Shown here: piece by piece, positions 4,343 through 17,271 of the stretch | How positions within the stretch are numbered: position 1 is the first letter of the stretch | Layout of the letters: each line of letters begins with the position of its first letter | Origin: Pedobacter schmidteae | GTDB lineage: Bacteria; Bacteroidota; Bacteroidia; Sphingobacteriales; Sphingobacteriaceae | DNA length: 32,000 nt | NCBI RefSeq assembly: GCF_900564155.1 | Contig: NZ_LS999839.1 | Coordinates: 585,097-617,096 of the forward strand | Direction: 5' to 3' | Program-made: the position numbers and the translations under genes | The notes under the pieces: generated by a model | Database searches by the model: none | What the model was told of the DNA's origin: nothing | What the model saw: the letters and a program-made list of their open reading frames with translations, nothing else

Positions 4343-4470
4343 TATATACTTCCTTTTGTCCGCCTCCCTGATTCGCTGAAGAACCAGACAAGCGATTTGC
4401 AATATTAAATTTGCTGCATGAGCAAATCGCATACGCTTAAATAGCGCATTAAATTTCATACATTTGAATT

Positions 4471-11748: not shown

Positions 11749-14700
11749 TTAAAAACTTGCATTTAAACTGAAAGAAAAAGATCGGGCAAATGGATATTCG
11801 ATACCACGTTCGCGCACAACAGACGAAATGCGAAATACATCGTTCATATATCCATTTAAGCGCAGTGCCGATAAGCCAAATTTCTTCAACCACTTTTGGG
11901 TCTGGAAATTATAGCCTAAGCTGATCGATTCGCCACTCAACACATTATCTGTCTGTACAAAACGGGACGACATTGGTGTGGTCTCCAACAGGCTTATTCC
12001 TTTAAACCGGGCAATATCACCAGGCTTTTTCCAGCGGTCATACAAGGCGCGTCTGTCTTGGTTGTTGGCCAGTTTCTCCATGCTGATATTCTCTACTTTA
12101 TCATATAAGGCACTGTTAAAAATATCCCGACCAAGGATATATCTCAGGTTCATATTAAAACTAAATCCCTTGTAGCTGATGGTATTGCTAAATACGCCCT
12201 CCACTTTGGGCTGACCATTTCCCACACGCCTGATATCGTTTACATCATATATAAAAGTATACTGTCCGTCTTGTTTTTGAAAAACTTCCATCCCTGTTCC
12301 AGGATCTATGCCCATAGAAGGAACGGCCCAAATGTCCTGCGGACTGTAACCATCCTTATAACGAATCAGACTTTTATTGGCTTGAGCCTTGGTATTCAAA
12401 GAGCCTAAGGTATTATTAAAGCCATCATATTTACTGGTATAAGCAGTTCCTGTAACACCTATGGTCCATACCATGCGGGATTCGGGCTTATAAACCGGCG
12501 AGTATTTTACCGTTGCTTCTATCCCTTTGATATCTAATGTCCCGGAATTGATCGGGTAAGAAGATATCCCGGTTGAAGAAGGCAGATCAATCGCTACCAC
12601 CAGGGGATCTGTTTTTTTCTGATATACATTGGCGTTGACTACCAAACGGCTTCCCAACATGACGATATCTGTGCCAATATTGGTTTGTACAGAATTTTGC
12701 CACCTCAGGTTCGCATTTCCCAACGCGTTCAATGTTACCCCCTGCCCAAATAAGTTGATATAAGAATCATATCCATAAGTAGAAATGGAAGAAACGGAGG
12801 CAAAATTCTGATTACCTGTATTTCCTCTGTTGGCATATAGTTTAAAAGTGTTTATCCAGGTCAGCTCCTTCATAAACTCCTCGCCATGTATGTTCCAACC
12901 CAGTCCTCCCACTACATAAGAAGTATATTTTTTGTTGGCCCCAAATGCTGTAGAACCATCATACCTGAATGAAAAATCGGCCAGATATTTATTTTTATAG
13001 GCGTAGTTGGCAGTAGCCAATATTGCGTTGGTACGTGTTTTACTAAATGCTGTAACCGGCCTCGAATTGGGCTTGTAGCTGTAGGCAAAATTTGGGTTAC
13101 CATTACTACTGGCAGGAAAACCTACAGCAGTAACCGCAATATTCTCATTATCATTATCGCGGATCTCACTTCGGATATTGGCAGTCAACGAATGGATCTC
13201 ATTAAACACTTTACCGTAAGTCAGCATCAGGTAACCATTATAACTAAAGTTATCGGTTTTACTGTTCCTGTAAGATCCCTTTTCAAAAAGATTGGTCTTA
13301 TCAAAAGTGGTGTTGAGTGGCGAAAGGAAATTTATCGCGGTCGTCACTCCTTTCTGTACCTGCACAGCCCCCTGGATTTTAAACTCCCTGTTCAGGTCTA
13401 TGATCATCTGCAGATTGTTTTGAATGGCCACATTTTTTGTATTGTTGACACTATTTAGTGAAGCATTATACATTGGATTATCAATCACGTATGAAAAAGT
13501 CTGATAATTAATACTCTCTTCCAGATAACGGCTATGCGGATTGTCTTTTCTGAAATAAGGATTGGCATTTGCAAAATTGGCAAAGGAACCATAAGGAGAT
13601 TCATCGGCTTTATAACCATTTATGTAAAGCTTATTGGAAAAATTGAATTTTCCGCGGCGATAAGAAAGGTCTATATTACCTGCCCAGTCCTGCCTGCCCG
13701 AGCCTTTCATTGCTCCTGTGGTATTTTTAAACGTTACGCCAACACCATAACGCAACGCATCATCTCCCCCGTCGGCATAAATAGAGTGCCGCTGACTAAA
13801 GCCTGTCTGCACGGGTACATTTAACCAATAGGTATTTACTCCCCGCTGTACTTCGGCTAAATGAACATTATAAAGGGAGTCGAGATCGCGCTGATAAGCA
13901 GGAATTGGATTAGCACCGATACCGCCGTAGGTATACCTACCCGAAAGCCTTTCAAACTCCAGCTTTTCGGCTGCATTCATCATATTGTAACCACTCAGGT
14001 CGGGCATTTCTATATTCAAATCGCTGCTGTAAGTCAGGTTCATTTGTCCCTGTCTGGGTTTAACGGTTTCAATAACCACCACACCGTTAGAAGCTTTTGA
14101 ACCATACATTGCCGTAGATGCAGCATCCTTAAGGATAGTAACCGATCCTATACGGTTCTGATTTAAATCGACAATCACGCGAAGCGAAGTTTCGAAACCG
14201 TCCAATATAAAAAGAGGTTGATTTGGATCGGAGGCGAACTGGTCCTGTAAGCTGGAAGAAATACTGGTTTTACCACGTATTTCTATATTTGGAAGTGCAT
14301 TTGGATTTGATCCAAGCTGATTGTTCTCCAACAGAATGAAAGAAGGATCTAATGCCCTCAAGCCCTGAATGATATTCTGGTTACCTACCGCTCGTAATTG
14401 CTCGCCGGTATATGACGCTGTAGCCCCGGTAAAACTACTTTTATTCCTGGTAATACCCGTACCTGTAATTACCACATCTTTCATATTGTTCTCTGCCAGT
14501 TCCAGTTTAACACTTAGTGGAGATTTTACACCCTTAACTTTAACTTCCCGACTCACATAACCGATATAGGAAATAACCAGAATATCGTTCTCACTAGCCG
14601 GCATGATTACAAAGCGGCCTTCGGCATTACTTACAGTACCACGACTGGCAGCTCCTTTTATTTTGATAGAAGCACCAGGTATAGGTGCATTATTTTCATC

Positions 14701-15042
14701 CAGCACCATACCACTTATCGGAAACTGCTGCTGTATAAAAAACTCAACCGGTTTATTTTTAATGATGATAGATCGGGCCTTGATTTCAAAAACCAAGTCC
14801 TGCCCTTCCAAGCATTCCTGTAAAGCATCCAACAATGGCGCATTACGCAAATCGATGGTAACCGGATGAACCGATTTCATCAGCGTTGCATCGTACATAA
14901 AATCATAACCTGTCTGATTTCTAATCTCCCTAAAAACTTTTTTTAAGGAAATATTCTTTTCTTTAAGTGTTACACGCTGGCCAAATGTGGCGGCACTAAC
15001 CTGCAACAAAGACATAGTCATCATAATTATGATCATTTTCAT
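11749..15042 (-). CDS. SusC/RagA-type TonB-dependent transporter with N-terminal STN signalling domain (paralog of 1031-4342)
   Basis: ORF 11749-15108. I prefer the start at Met23 (ATG 15042), which gives MKMIIIMMTMSLLQVSAATFGQ and aligns with the paralog's signal peptide. The start at 15108 cannot be excluded. STN segment: LKKVFREIRNQTGYDFMYDA..IIIKNK. Plug: DVVITG.., ILDGFE.., ILKDAASTAMYGSKASNGVVVIETVK. By eye it is highly similar to 1031-4342 across the plug region. Confidence 0.9.
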   Translation of the reverse strand: MKMIIIMMTMSLLQVSAATFGQRVTLKEKNISLKKVFREIRNQTGYDFMYDATLMKSVHPVTIDLRNAPLLDALQECLEGQDLVFEIKARSIIIKNKPVEFFIQQQFPISGMVLDENNAPIPGASIKIKGAASRGTVSNAEGRFVIMPASENDILVISYIGYVSREVKVKGVKSPLSVKLELAENNMKDVVITGTGITRNKSSFTGATASYTGEQLRAVGNQNIIQGLRALDPSFILLENNQLGSNPNALPNIEIRGKTSISSSLQDQFASDPNQPLFILDGFETSLRVIVDLNQNRIGSVTILKDAASTAMYGSKASNGVVVIETVKPRQGQMNLTYSSDLNIEMPDLSGYNMMNAAEKLEFERLSGRYTYGGIGANPIPAYQRDLDSLYNVHLAEVQRGVNTYWLNVPVQTGFSQRHSIYADGGDDALRYGVGVTFKNTTGAMKGSGRQDWAGNIDLSYRRGKFNFSNKLYINGYKADESPYGSFANFANANPYFRKDNPHSRYLEESINYQTFSYVIDNPMYNASLNSVNNTKNVAIQNNLQMIIDLNREFKIQGAVQVQKGVTTAINFLSPLNTTFDKTNLFEKGSYRNSKTDNFSYNGYLMLTYGKVFNEIHSLTANIRSEIRDNDNENIAVTAVGFPASSNGNPNFAYSYKPNSRPVTAFSKTRTNAILATANYAYKNKYLADFSFRYDGSTAFGANKKYTSYVVGGLGWNIHGEEFMKELTWINTFKLYANRGNTGNQNFASVSSISTYGYDSYINLFGQGVTLNALGNANLRWQNSVQTNIGTDIVMLGSRLVVNANVYQKKTDPLVVAIDLPSSTGISSYPINSGTLDIKGIEATVKYSPVYKPESRMVWTIGVTGTAYTSKYDGFNNTLGSLNTKAQANKSLIRYKDGYSPQDIWAVPSMGIDPGTGMEVFQKQDGQYTFIYDVNDIRRVGNGQPKVEGVFSNTISYKGFSFNMNLRYILGRDIFNSALYDKVENISMEKLANNQDRRALYDRWKKPGDIARFKGISLLETTPMSSRFVQTDNVLSGESISLGYNFQTQKWLKKFGLSALRLNGYMNDVFRISSVVRERGIEYPFARSFSFSLNASF

Positions 15043-15119
15043 AATTAATAATAGTTTGGGTGGTAGCCAAAGATTGGGCATACCTAGTTTAAAAGCATAT
15101 TTATTCATACTTTTGATTG

Positions 15120-15237
15120 GTTTGAGTTGATACAGAATGGTTGGACTAATTGTTCTTCTCTGTCTGCAAAGGACAGGGAATGGTCACCTCAAACTTTTGC
15201 CGGATTGTGCTTCCAACACCTTCCGGCTTTTGTATTT
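15120..15237 (+). ncRNA. Candidate cis-antisense small RNA in the second fecR-susC spacer
   Basis: Plus-strand TACTTTTG (15108-15115) matches TAnnTTTG. A hairpin plus T-tract follows 84 nt downstream (15199-15237). No plus-strand CDS is nearby. The geometry matches 4459-4605. The 5' end is only predicted. Confidence 0.3.
15199..15237 (+). terminator. Intrinsic-terminator-like hairpin plus T-tract oriented antisense to the operon
   Basis: GCCGGA (15199-15204) pairs with TCCGGC (15222-15227). An inner GTG/CAC (15207-15209 with 15217-15219) follows a 2x2 internal loop. The downstream flank is TTTTGTATTT. The outer stem differs from the paralogous hairpin at two positions, and both changes are compensated on the opposite arm. 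Confidence 0.45.
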
Positions 15238-15323
15238 AAGGCCACCTTTGTCTTGACACTAAGGTTTTGGTAATTGTTTTTTCATTGTTTTTAGATTTGG
15301 TTTGTTAGTTGTTGGGTTAATAT

Positions 15324-16472
15324 TTATTTGAGTACATTAATTTTTCTGCCTTCTATTTTAAAGTGAACCTTACCGGTTGATTCAATAATTGCTAACACTT
15401 CTCCAATACTTTTTGAACGTGAAACCAATCCTTCGAGCGTAATATTCTTTGGAACATTTTCCTGATAAACAATCTGTACATCATACCACCGGGCTATTTT
15501 CCGCATCATACTTTCCAGGTTTTCCTCCTTAAACACAAAATCCCCGTTTTTCCAGTCGATCTCGTCTTCAGCTTCTACTGCAACTACCTTTATCCCATCC
15601 TGTTTCAACTCCGACTGCTGTCCCGGTTTTAAGATAACCACAGAAATGCCATTTACTTTGGCTTTTACCTGTACGCTACCCTCCAGCAAAGTTGTCTTGG
15701 TACTGCCATCATCGGCATAGCTTTTCACATTAAAATGTGTGCCCAAAACCATTACCTCTTGTTCGGCCGTAGCCACAATGAATGGCTTACGATCTGCTTT
15801 TGCAATCTCAAAGTAGGCTTCTCCATTTAATTCTACTCTTCTTTCCCTTGACGAATTAATCTGAGCCGGGTATCTTAAAGAAGAGGCTGCATTTAACCAT
15901 ACCCTGGAACCGTCGGGCAAAAGGATCTGGTATTGCCCACCTTTAGGGGTTGCAATGGTATTATAAGCAATCCTTTGGGGATCTTCTACCGCCGAAGTCT
16001 CTGCGACACGATAAATCAGCTGCCCATCGGCTGTTTTAGTAATATGGATTCCCGACTGAACCCCCACGTTTCCTGTGTGCGCAGCTGTCAGGTCAATTAT
16101 TTTACCATTTGCCAATGTTAAAGTGGCCTTATTCCCTCCAGGAATAATAGTGGCCTGTGCCATGCCAGCGGCCTCCTCCATTACCTTTGTATCGTGGGAT
16201 AGGTAAAAAAACAAGCCTGCCGAAAGTGTCATCAGCACTGCGACAGCAGCTGCAATGGTTGGCCAACTATGAAATTTCACTGGCGATTTCTGCTCTTTCT
16301 GTAGATTCAGCAAAACCCCATCAAGGTCCGCTGTACGCTCTTCTAATCCTAATTCGGATGTTCCGGCTTCTTGATAAGTCAGGTACCAGCTTTCCAACAA
16401 GGCTTTTTCAGCCTCAGTAGCCTGCCCCTTTCTGTAATTGTCCAGTATGGTTTTTATTTCTTCTTCCTGCAT
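15324..16472 (-). CDS. FecR-family transmembrane anti-sigma factor (paralog of 4623-5744)
   Basis: 382 aa with a TM helix (TIAAAVAVLMTLSAGLFFYL). FecR-like core: ..GEAYFEIAKADRKPFIV......V.VLGTHFNVKSY. The same C-terminal ..VHFKIEGRKINV tail is present. Confidence 0.9.
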   Translation of the reverse strand: MQEEEIKTILDNYRKGQATEAEKALLESWYLTYQEAGTSELGLEERTADLDGVLLNLQKEQKSPVKFHSWPTIAAAVAVLMTLSAGLFFYLSHDTKVMEEAAGMAQATIIPGGNKATLTLANGKIIDLTAAHTGNVGVQSGIHITKTADGQLIYRVAETSAVEDPQRIAYNTIATPKGGQYQILLPDGSRVWLNAASSLRYPAQINSSRERRVELNGEAYFEIAKADRKPFIVATAEQEVMVLGTHFNVKSYADDGSTKTTLLEGSVQVKAKVNGISVVILKPGQQSELKQDGIKVVAVEAEDEIDWKNGDFVFKEENLESMMRKIARWYDVQIVYQENVPKNITLEGLVSRSKSIGEVLAIIESTGKVHFKIEGRKINVLK

Positions 16473-16645: not shown

Positions 16646-17230
16646 TCAAAACCTGAATATATAAAGCAGATAAATGACCAATCCGAGTCTCTTTCTGAGC
16701 ACTCTAAGCGCATTTGTCATTTGTTTTTTTACAGTCTGTTCGGTAGTTCCCAAACGTTCTGCAATTTCCTTATGGCTAAGAAAGCCTTTGCGGCTCAGCT
16801 CAAAAACCTCTCGCATCCTTGGAGGCAAAGCAGCCACTTCCTTTTCAATCAATTCTCTTAACTGATTTTCTCTCACCCGGTGATCGGCAATCACAGTATC
16901 CTGATCAACAAAAGACTGAATGGAAACAATATATTTATTTCGCACTTCTTTACGGACCATCTGGTTCAGGATATAATTTCTTAAACTGGTATACAAATAA
17001 CCAGATAGATTAACATTCACATCCAAGCTTTCCCGTTTAGCCCATAGCATGGTAAATATTTCCTGAATGGTATCCTGTGCTTCTTCCCTGTTACGGGTTT
17101 TATTCCAGGCATGATTATGCAACACAAACTTATAGCGATGATAGATTTGCTCATATGCCGACCGATCTCCTGCTTTAAGTAGCTGAAGTAACTCTGCATC
17201 CGGAATAAGTGGTAAATCTGAATCTTGCAT
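16646..17230 (-). CDS. ECF-type RNA polymerase sigma factor (paralog of 5834-6415)
   Basis: The tracked ORF runs to 17266. I prefer the start MQDSDLPLIPDAELLQLLKAGDRSAYEQIY (ATG 17230) for two reasons. It aligns residue for residue with MQEQDLSRIPDDELLLLFKAGDRHAYEQIY of the paralog. It also places the shared TATTATTG box at the same 33-nt distance. Region 4: ALPPRMREVFELSRKGFLSHKEIAERLGTTEQTVKKQMTNA. Confidence 0.9.
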   Translation of the reverse strand: MQDSDLPLIPDAELLQLLKAGDRSAYEQIYHRYKFVLHNHAWNKTRNREEAQDTIQEIFTMLWAKRESLDVNVNLSGYLYTSLRNYILNQMVRKEVRNKYIVSIQSFVDQDTVIADHRVRENQLRELIEKEVAALPPRMREVFELSRKGFLSHKEIAERLGTTEQTVKKQMTNALRVLRKRLGLVIYLLYIFRF

Positions 17231-17263
17231 TTGGTCCCTGGATATTGAAATGAATTCCAAATG

Positions 17264-17271
17264 CAATAATA
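17264..17271 (-). promoter_or_regulatory. Candidate -7 promoter box TATTATTG upstream of the second ECF sigma gene
   Basis: The minus strand reads ACTTATTATTGCATTTGG. The box ends 33 nt upstream of the ATG at 17230, the same spacing as at 6449-6456. Confidence 0.3.

What the first reader, a model, noticed from the sequence alone, without database searches (positions are those of the whole stretch)
15108..15237. Second antisense-sRNA candidate with compensatory base changes relative to copy 1
SEEN:
- The paralogous spacer (15043-15323, 281 nt versus 280 nt in copy 1) has the same plus-strand arrangement. TACTTTTG lies at 15108-15115, and a hairpin GCCGGA..TCCGGC at 15199-15227 is followed by TTTTGTATTT.
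- The outer stems differ at two positions (CCTGGA/TCCAGG versus GCCGGA/TCCGGC). Both differences are matched on the opposite arm (C-G to G-C, and T-A to C-G).
- The surrounding spacer sequence is otherwise poorly conserved.

INFERENCE: selection is acting on the structure rather than on a DNA-binding motif, and its polarity (the T-tract) is antisense to the operon. Two independent copies make chance less likely.
Basis: partly seen in the sequence, partly recalled or inferred. Interest (0 to 1): 0.6.

Follow-up and report, generated by a model that had tools for sequence, protein, structure and literature searches.

The report
DonS-like antisense RNA gene facing susC
The gap between an anti-sigma gene and a nutrient-uptake gene (susC) in this Pedobacter genome very probably holds a gene for a folded RNA of about 116 bases read from the opposite strand. 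It is one of some 60-85 such units in the genome and is built like the DonS antisense RNAs that restrain sugar-utilisation loci in gut Bacteroides, so it is real but of a known kind.

Summary
The argument from "compensatory changes versus copy 1" is weak, because any two hairpins differ in a compensated way. Comparative data nevertheless support the conclusion.

- **Position and strand.** An exact TAnnTTTG box lies antisense in 85/105 fecR-susC spacers of this genome (sense 11) and in 77/80 related loci. Box plus terminator occurs antisense in 58/80 related loci and never in sense.
- **Structure.** In 44 homologues, 92% of pair cells are paired (shuffles 71%, slid partners 35-49%). 39 of 40 pairs show double changes. 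There are 262 G-U cells against 34 A-C cells, so the fold belongs to the + strand RNA.
- **Conservation.** Orthologues conserve the RNA region more (83-86%) than fecR and susC (70-73%).
- **Gene start.** The true susC start is the ATG at 15108, so the box overlaps it. The predicted RNA (15120 to about 15235) is complementary to the sequence just upstream of susC.

Best reading: a DonS-like cis-antisense repressor, a new member of a known kind. This scan reached the same reading for copy 1 and for fecR-susC spacers in other genomes. A conserved micro-ORF in the same spacer is unexplained.

The parts
15108..15115 (+). Bacteroidota sigma-A -7 box TACTTTTG (TAnnTTTG). Its first T is the complement of the A of the susC start codon.
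   Evidence: Read. The same box abuts the susC start in 85/105 own spacers (11 in sense) and in 77/80 related loci. It is invariant in the orthologues. The box sits at -12 to -5 in Flavobacterium (PMC9723704).
15120..15237 (+). Predicted antisense RNA of about 114-118 nt. The 5' end is inferred from the box and the 3' end lies within the U-tract.
   Evidence: It folds at -42 kcal/mol with z -4.5. The opposite strand folds at -30.7 with z -2.6. Covariance models R1 and R2 match it at 118.6 and 103.4 bits. It is 83-86% identical to the orthologues, against 70-73% for the flanking genes.
15120..15194 (+). Body of the RNA. Closing helix P1 pairs 15120-15131 with 15183-15194. It encloses hairpins P2 (15134-15143/15147-15156) and P3 (15157-15165/15171-15179).
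   Evidence: In alignment A4, P1 is 96.6% paired, P2 84.4% and P3 84.0%. All but one of their pairs show double changes, and many conserved G-U pairs occur. A sequence-only alignment recovers the P1 core.
15199..15237 (+). Intrinsic terminator: stem 15199-15204/15222-15227 plus 15207-15209/15217-15219, then TTTTGTATTT.
   Evidence: In 44 homologues this helix is 99.6-100% paired, with 7-28 double changes per lower-stem pair. The tails are 77% U. The T-tract polarity is antisense in 98 spacers against 3.
11749..15108 (-). susC-like TonB-dependent transducer (STN, CarboxypepD_reg and Plug domains). The start is revised to the ATG at 15108.
   Evidence: Pfam. The N-terminal extension is conserved at protein level.
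15324..16472 (-). fecR-type anti-sigma factor gene.
   Evidence: Pfam FecR and FecR_C.
16646..17266 (-). ECF sigma factor gene.
   Evidence: Pfam Sigma70_r2, Sigma70_r4_2 and Sigma70_ECF.
15259..15285 (-). Micro-ORF MKKQLPKP* in the sense leader, 21 nt upstream (in sense terms) of the region complementary to the RNA. Its role is unknown.
   Evidence: Read. An ORF of the same kind occurs in 61/65 long spacers (shuffles 24 +/- 3.7). Indels are in frame. There is no peptide-level selection: variable columns by codon position are 5/12/9.
15292..15299 (+). Second TAnnTTTG box (TAGATTTG followed by GGTTTG), pointing into the fecR 3' end. No terminator was found for it. It may be a relic of a duplicated start module.
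   Evidence: Similar second boxes occur in other spacers.

Best explanation
Window 15108-15237 (+) is a gene for a structured cis-antisense small RNA of about 116 nt. It lies in an ECF-sigma / FecR / SusC-SusD locus of a Pedobacter.

**Anatomy (shown by sequence comparison)**
- A housekeeping-type promoter box (TAnnTTTG) overlaps the susC start codon.
- Transcription would start about 12 nt upstream of that codon, at about 15120, and run away from susC.
- The RNA folds into a closing helix around two hairpins and ends at an intrinsic terminator 86 nt before the fecR stop.
- It is therefore perfectly complementary to the stretch of sense RNA from about -12 to about -130 relative to the susC AUG.
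- No sense-oriented terminator follows fecR, so this stretch is at least read through from fecR.

**Mechanism (inferred)**
- I infer the mechanism by analogy with DonS. When the sigma factor is idle, the antisense RNA is in excess. It pairs with the few sense transcripts, blocks ribosome access next to the AUG and/or triggers cleavage of the duplex, and keeps the transporter off.
- On induction, sense transcription outnumbers the antisense RNA and runs over its promoter. This gives a threshold-like switch.
For: - **Context.** The genes are ECF sigma, FecR and STN-SusC, all on the minus strand.
- **Box at a fixed place.** It is antisense in 85/105 spacers against 11 in sense, and in 77/80 against 6/80 related loci. 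Box plus terminator is antisense in 58/80 and in sense in 0/80.
- **Enrichment.** Genome-wide, 61 of 730 box+terminator units lie antisense in these spacers, where 2 are expected. None is in sense.
- **T-tract polarity.** 98 antisense against 3 sense.
- **Strand of the fold.** The antisense strand folds better in 114/116 units, with z -4.5 against -2.9. G-U cells number 262 against 34 A-C cells.
- **Covariation.** 92.2% of cells are paired, against 70.8% in shuffles and 35-49% in slid controls. 39/40 pairs show double changes. A sequence-only alignment recovers P1 and the terminator.
- **Specificity of the model.** All 31 R2 hits in the genome lie antisense in fecR-susC spacers. So do the four hits in other families.
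- **Conservation.** The RNA region is more conserved than the flanking genes.
- **Not coding.** Indels of 4 nt in the P3 loop among orthologues rule out a conserved + strand ORF.
- **Precedent.** DonS-type RNAs are 78-128 nt, divergent to susC and repress the locus (PMC7366714). B. thetaiotaomicron has 32 PUL-associated antisense RNAs (PMC10994844).
Against: - No transcript, 5' end or 3' end was seen.
- No clear -33 element lies upstream of the box.
- The start of the sense transcript is unknown. If the ECF promoter lay close to susC, the overlap with the mRNA would be short and the mechanism would differ.
- In B. thetaiotaomicron some RNA/locus pairs correlate positively (PMC10994844), so repression is not assured.
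- In the closest eight sequences the terminator hardly varies, which shows conservation but no covariation.
- Alignment A4 was fitted to the model.
Confidence: 0.75

Rival explanations
1. The conserved structure belongs to the sense RNA. On this reading it is a folded leader or intercistronic element of the fecR-susC transcript that controls susC translation or stability in cis, and no antisense RNA is made.
For: The mirror fold exists on the minus strand (-30.7 kcal/mol, z -2.6) and would sequester the region just upstream of the AUG. Watson-Crick covariation fits either strand.
Against: G-U cells number 262 against 34 A-C cells, so only 77% of cells pair as sense RNA against 92% as antisense. 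The antisense strand folds better in 114/116 units. The T-tract and the TAnnTTTG box are both antisense. On the sense strand AAAAGTTTGAGG follows the hairpin, which is not a terminator tail.
Confidence: 0.08
2. The antisense promoter is real, but the act of transcription is what matters. It would occlude or collide with polymerase at the susC start or at an ECF promoter inside this stretch. The terminator merely shields fecR and the sigma gene, and the RNA product itself has no role.
For: The box overlaps the susC start codon. The sense start site is unknown. The terminator always precedes fecR.
Against: The helices P1-P3 covary and keep G-U pairs across 44 homologues. The apex of the terminator is almost invariant. 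Neither would be needed if the RNA were a by-product.
Confidence: 0.12
3. It is a dispersed repeat, of the REP or miniature-element type, that has colonised these spacers and has no regulatory role.
For: Dozens of similar copies occur in each genome.
Against: All 31 model hits sit at the same place and in the same orientation relative to fecR and susC, and none lies elsewhere. Copies are as diverged as their host genes, which share about 45% FecR identity. Orthologues in other species keep the copy at the same site. Non-cognate units are mostly dissimilar.
Confidence: 0.03

Closest known systems
DonS of Bacteroides fragilis and the DonS-like PUL-associated cis-antisense RNAs of Bacteroides. 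The source is Cao et al. 2016, J Bacteriol 198:2410, which is not held here. I cite it as described in PMC7366714, PMC10994844 and PMC9723704.
   Same: Both are small RNA genes between the anti-sigma gene and susC of an ECF-sigma-controlled SusC/D locus. Both are divergent to susC, driven by the housekeeping promoter type and ended by an intrinsic terminator. The predicted size of about 116 nt falls within the reported 78-128 nt. Both come in many copies per genome.
   Different: - The host is a soil Sphingobacteriaceae (Pedobacter), not a gut Bacteroides.
- There are about 60-85 units per genome, against 15 reported in B. fragilis and 32 in B. thetaiotaomicron.
- Here a shared multi-helix fold with covariation is shown.
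- The box overlaps the susC start codon.
- Expression and repression are untested here.
- No sequence comparison with DonS itself was possible.
FopS/GibS trans-acting sRNAs of B. thetaiotaomicron (PMC11697453)
   Same: Both are multicopy sRNA families that act on the region around susC start codons. FopS has a single-stranded 5' seed followed by a terminator.
   Different: - FopS RNAs are mostly intergenic and act in trans through a shared seed.
- Here the 5' end is locked in helix P1.
- Pairing with non-cognate leaders is weak: median -9.9 against -35.5 kcal/mol for the cognate leader.
- There is no Rfam match.
Classical cis-antisense control RNAs, such as plasmid CopA/CopT-type systems (from general knowledge)
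   Same: Both are short, highly structured antisense RNAs made from a constitutive promoter. Both are fully complementary to the leader of the controlled gene.
   Different: This one is chromosomal, is repeated at about 100 paralogous nutrient-uptake loci, and sits in a phylum without Shine-Dalgarno-based initiation.

Membership tests
DonS-like PUL-associated cis-antisense RNA | Lies between the anti-sigma gene and susC of an ECF-sigma/anti-sigma SusC/D locus | tested here: met
   Pfam finds Sigma70_ECF, FecR/FecR_C and STN+Plug SusC. The unit lies at 15108-15237, between fecR (15324) and susC (15108).
DonS-like PUL-associated cis-antisense RNA | Encoded on the strand opposite to susC and divergent from it | tested here: met
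   The box, the G-U pattern and the T-tract are all on the + strand. This rests on sequence only.
DonS-like PUL-associated cis-antisense RNA | Small size (78-128 nt, PMC7366714) | tested here: met
   The predicted RNA runs from 15120 to 15233-15237, which is 114-118 nt. The 5' end is inferred from the box position (PMC9723704).
DonS-like PUL-associated cis-antisense RNA | A discrete transcript is detected | not testable with these tools
DonS-like PUL-associated cis-antisense RNA | Represses the cognate locus | not testable with these tools
   This needs genetics.
DonS-like PUL-associated cis-antisense RNA | Sequence or structure homology to Bacteroides DonS | tested here: inconclusive
   The DonS sequence was not on hand. 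Model R2 hit only 4 of 150 other phylum genomes, all in the same context. A sample of one locus per genome in other families showed only partial signals.
FopS / GibS (Rfam) | Match to the deposited covariance model | tested here: not met
   There is no Rfam match at gathering score, and only chance-level matches at E up to 10.
Bacteroidota sigma-A promoter | -7 box TAnnTTTG | tested here: met
   TACTTTTG lies at 15108-15115. It is conserved in position across the family.
Bacteroidota sigma-A promoter | -33 element TTTG/TTG | tested here: inconclusive
   There is only weak T enrichment at about -35 and -33. That stretch is also susC coding sequence.
Intrinsic (Rho-independent) terminator | G+C-rich hairpin directly followed by a U-tract | tested here: met
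   The hairpin folds at -13.2 kcal/mol and is followed by TTTTGTATTT. The family tails are 77% U.

The most novel reading that the evidence does not exclude
The spacer is a three-part control module, not a simple antisense pair. On this reading a translated micro-ORF at the head of the susC leader, the structured antisense RNA and the near-invariant GUG..CAC apex of its terminator hairpin work together. The apex could be a protein or kissing-loop contact. For example, ribosomes on the micro-ORF might gate access of the antisense RNA to the leader. Close sister RNAs might also cross-repress a few sister loci and so rank substrates. Such a module, repeated at about 100 loci per genome across Sphingobacteriaceae, has not been described for the DonS class in the papers I could read.
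Probability: 0.15. Interest if true: 0.65.

Novelty: new member of a known kind. Interest (0 to 1): 0.4.

Why it matters
DonS-type antisense RNAs have been studied only in gut Bacteroides, and their role is described there as unsettled (PMC10994844). This Pedobacter carries the same arrangement at most of its roughly 105 sigma/anti-sigma/SusC loci. The arrangement includes a covarying fold and a promoter box fused to the susC start codon. This suggests the antisense layer is an old, general part of trans-envelope signalling loci in the class, not a gut speciality. It also gives a large natural set of variants for working out which parts of the RNA matter. For genome annotation, susC starts and 'long spacers' in such loci should be re-read with this unit in mind.

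Tried and rejected
- **Rfam.** There was no match at gathering score or at E up to 10.
- **Built-in promoter/terminator scan.** It looks for sigma-70 hexamers and loops of 3-8, so it missed both signals.
- **Cao et al. 2016.** It could not be opened by DOI, PubMed id or PMC id.
- **Shared 5' seed acting in trans.** I rejected this as a general mechanism. Non-cognate duplexes have a median of -9.9 against -35.5 kcal/mol for the cognate leader, and only 6/50 reach -15 or below.
- **ECF promoter in the spacer.** No motif was shared across paralogues. A candidate AAC..N17..TAGAGT over the micro-ORF is broken by a 6-nt deletion in one orthologue. CGT boxes near the susC start occur only in some subfamilies. 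This remains unresolved.
- **Micro-ORF as a conserved peptide.** This is not supported. Variable columns by codon position are 5/12/9.
- **Wider survey.** A one-locus-per-genome sample of other families found the full arrangement only in the same family, so I make no claim about phylum-wide breadth.
- **dCas12f-sigma-E guide RNAs (PMC13472631).** I considered these. Those loci lack FecR and the RNAs lie on the same strand as their targets, so they are not relevant.
- **A + strand ORF through the RNA.** This is rejected because of frame-breaking indels in the orthologues.

Full report
**Setting**

The window lies in a single-contig genome of 6.2 Mb and 41% G+C. The closest FecR relatives are all from Pedobacter. 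The probable orthologues are in P. hiemivivus (68% identity), Pedobacter sp. MC2016-24 (64%) and Pedobacter sp. ok626 (60%).

On the minus strand the window carries two modules of ECF sigma, FecR anti-sigma, STN-domain SusC and SusD. The finding lies between fecR (15324-16472) and susC of the second module.

**The observation**

Three points need correction.

- **A single box means nothing.** TAnnTTTG occurs 31 times in the window, against 36.7 expected.
- **The two-copy comparison is weak.** Two hairpins compared with each other always differ in a compensated way. The two stems also differ in build: 11 continuous pairs in copy 1, against 6+3 pairs with an internal loop in copy 2. The two-copy argument therefore has little force.
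- **susC starts at 15108, not 15042.**
  - The 22 codons between the two ATGs read M-N/K-x-x-A/T-F-x-L-G-x-P..W-L-P-P-K-L/F-L-L-I in six homologues.
  - Their variable columns by codon position are 9/3/12, and there is one in-frame indel.
  - The downstream 'start' is GTG in two paralogues.
  - The spacer is therefore 215 nt, and the first T of the box is the complement of the A of the start codon.

**Family evidence for the promoter box and terminator**

The genome has 112 fecR genes, and 105 of them have a susC within 500 nt downstream.

| Test | Antisense | Sense |
|---|---|---|
| Hairpin plus T-run, own spacers (of 105) | 75 | 12 |
| Exact TAnnTTTG box, own spacers (of 105) | 85 | 11 |
| Box, related loci (of 80) | 77 | 6 |
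| Strong terminator, related loci (of 80) | 62 | 6 |
| Box plus terminator 55-170 nt apart, related loci (of 80) | 58 | 0 |
| At least 5 T of 8 after the best hairpin (of 138 spacers) | 98 | 3 |

- The box nearly always abuts the start codon. The consensus is ATAAAAWTTCA-TACATTTG-nTTnGTTTGG.
- The 80 related loci come from Pedobacter, Mucilaginibacter, Daejeonella, Solitalea and others.
- The last row of the table is a test that does not presuppose the strand. I took the best Watson-Crick hairpin of each spacer and counted T in the 8 nt after it on either strand.
- Genome-wide, a crude box+terminator definition finds 730 units. Of these, 61 lie antisense in the fecR-susC spacers, which make up 0.54% of the genome, where 2 are expected. 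None lies there in sense.

**The RNA and its strand**

In Flavobacterium the box occupies -12 to -5 (PMC9723704), which puts the start at about 15120. From there the + strand folds into four elements:

- closing helix P1, 15120-15131 with 15183-15194;
- hairpin P2, 15134-15143 with 15147-15156;
- hairpin P3, 15157-15165 with 15171-15179;
- the terminator, 15199-15227, followed by the U-tract 15228-15237.

The fold has -42 kcal/mol and z -4.5. The opposite strand reaches only -30.7 kcal/mol and z -2.6. Over 116 units the antisense strand folds better in 114, with mean z -4.5 against -2.9.

I built a covariance model from copy 2, its three orthologues and four close paralogues.

- It found 20 further sites in the genome and 44 sites in the loci held. 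Every one of the 26 in related genomes is on the strand opposite to fecR.
- On that 44-sequence alignment, 92.2% of pair cells form standard pairs. Shuffles give 70.8% and slid partners 35-49%. 39 of 40 pairs show changes on both sides, and the covariation score is 0.486 against 0.173.
- The alignment is fitted to the model. However, a sequence-only MAFFT alignment of 37 of these sequences lets RNAalifold recover the P1 core and the terminator, again with many G-U pairs.
- G-U cells number 262 and A-C cells 34. The same helices would be only 77% paired in the sense RNA.
- Among the eight closest sequences the terminator is almost invariant, which shows conservation but no covariation.
- The second model, R2, found 31 sites in the genome, all antisense in fecR-susC spacers.
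- R2 also found four sites in 150 other genomes of the phylum. All four lie between fecR and susC, antisense, behind a CATAnnTTTG or a one-mismatch variant.
- Orthologues keep the RNA region at 83-86% identity, while fecR and susC are at 70-73%.
- Indels of 4 nt in the P3 loop exclude a conserved + strand ORF.

**How it probably works**

*Shown by sequence comparison:* a conserved promoter box, a conserved fold specific to the + strand RNA, and a terminator of the right polarity.

*Inferred:* that the RNA is made, and what it does.

- The RNA is fully complementary to the sense strand from about -12 to about -130 relative to the susC AUG.
- No sense-oriented terminator follows fecR in 93 of 105 spacers, this one included. 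Read-through RNA from fecR therefore carries the target.
- By analogy with DonS, which lowers expression of its susC operon (PMC7366714), I propose that the RNA pairs with sense transcripts and blocks initiation next to the AUG and/or triggers duplex cleavage. This would set a threshold that induced sense transcription overcomes.
- The position of the ECF-dependent start site is unknown. If it lay close to susC, promoter interference would be the better model.
- General trans action through the shared 5' GGUUUGGG motif is unlikely. The motif is paired in P1, and non-cognate duplexes are weak.

**Comparison with what is known**

The arrangement matches the DonS-like PUL-associated antisense RNAs of Bacteroides in place, orientation, size and promoter type (PMC7366714, PMC10994844, PMC9723704).

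- It is not FopS/GibS (PMC11697453).
- It is not related to the dCas12f-sigma-E guide RNAs (PMC13472631).
- I could not read Cao et al. 2016 or obtain the DonS sequence, so homology with DonS is open.
- Earlier notes of this scan reached the same reading for copy 1 of this window and for fecR-susC spacers in other genomes, including a marine flavobacterium.
- I file it as a new member of a known kind. The points of added interest are the very large copy number, the demonstrable fold and the non-gut host.

**Unexplained**

- **Micro-ORF.**
  - In the 'long' class of spacers, where the RNA's 3' end lies 55 nt or more from the fecR stop, a micro-ORF sits between the fecR stop and the RNA's 3' end. 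Here it lies at 15259-15285 and reads MKKQLPKP*.
  - Such an ORF of 3-14 codons, mostly 7-11, is present in 61 of 65 such spacers, against 24 +/- 3.7 in shuffles.
  - Indels among orthologues keep the frame. Substitutions do not spare the second codon position: variable columns are 5/12/9. If it is translated, the act of translation would matter and not the peptide.
  - Its upstream context resembles that of the susC start, and a second + strand box (15292-15299) lies 6 nt beyond its ATG. It may be a decayed duplicate of the start module.
  - Copy 1 belongs to the 'short' class and has no micro-ORF.
- **Terminator apex.** The GUG..CAC apex of the terminator hairpin is almost invariant while the lower stem covaries.

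**Limits**

- The calibration of the models is rough.
- Paralogues and orthologues are not independent samples.
- The survey outside Sphingobacteriaceae was small.

Noticed in passing
window 15259-15285 (minus strand): A micro-ORF (MKKQLPKP*) lies in the sense leader between the fecR stop and the antisense RNA's 3' end. An ORF of the same kind occurs in 61/65 long-class spacers (shuffles 24 +/- 3.7). Indels among orthologues are in frame, but there is no peptide-level selection (variable columns 5/12/9 by codon position).
   Followed up: partly
window 15292-15299 (+ strand): A second TAnnTTTG box (TAGATTTG followed by GGTTTG) lies 6 nt beyond the micro-ORF start and points into the fecR 3' end. 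I saw no terminator for it. The micro-ORF's upstream context resembles the susC start context, which suggests a decayed tandem duplicate of the start/promoter module.
   Followed up: partly
window 15043-15108 and 4343-4459 (minus strand): Both susC genes probably start upstream of the Met that precedes the hydrophobic signal segment, at 15108 and at 4459. This gives a conserved N-terminal extension (M-K-x-x-A-F-x-L-G-x-P..WLPPKLLLI). For copy 1, I checked only that the ATG is in frame and abuts the box.
   Followed up: partly
window 15207-15219 (+ strand) and homologues (alignment A4): The apex of the terminator hairpin (GUG-loop-CAC) is almost invariant in 44 diverged members (40-42 of 44) while the lower stem covaries freely. 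This hints at a sequence-specific contact with a protein or a loop-loop partner.
   Followed up: no
whole genome (G000): The genome has 112 fecR genes, and 105 of them have a susC within 500 nt downstream. The spacers fall into two classes by the distance from the fecR stop to the RNA's 3' end: about 0-45 nt (copy 1 is one of these) and about 58-130 nt (copy 2 is one of these).
   Followed up: partly
L109-L112 (genomes G139, G043, G087, G022; other families of the same class): Model R2 finds single units in the same place and orientation in three other families, behind CATAGCTTTG, CATAGTTTTG, CATAACTTTG and CATACTTTTA. The unit is therefore not confined to Sphingobacteriaceae.
   Followed up: partly
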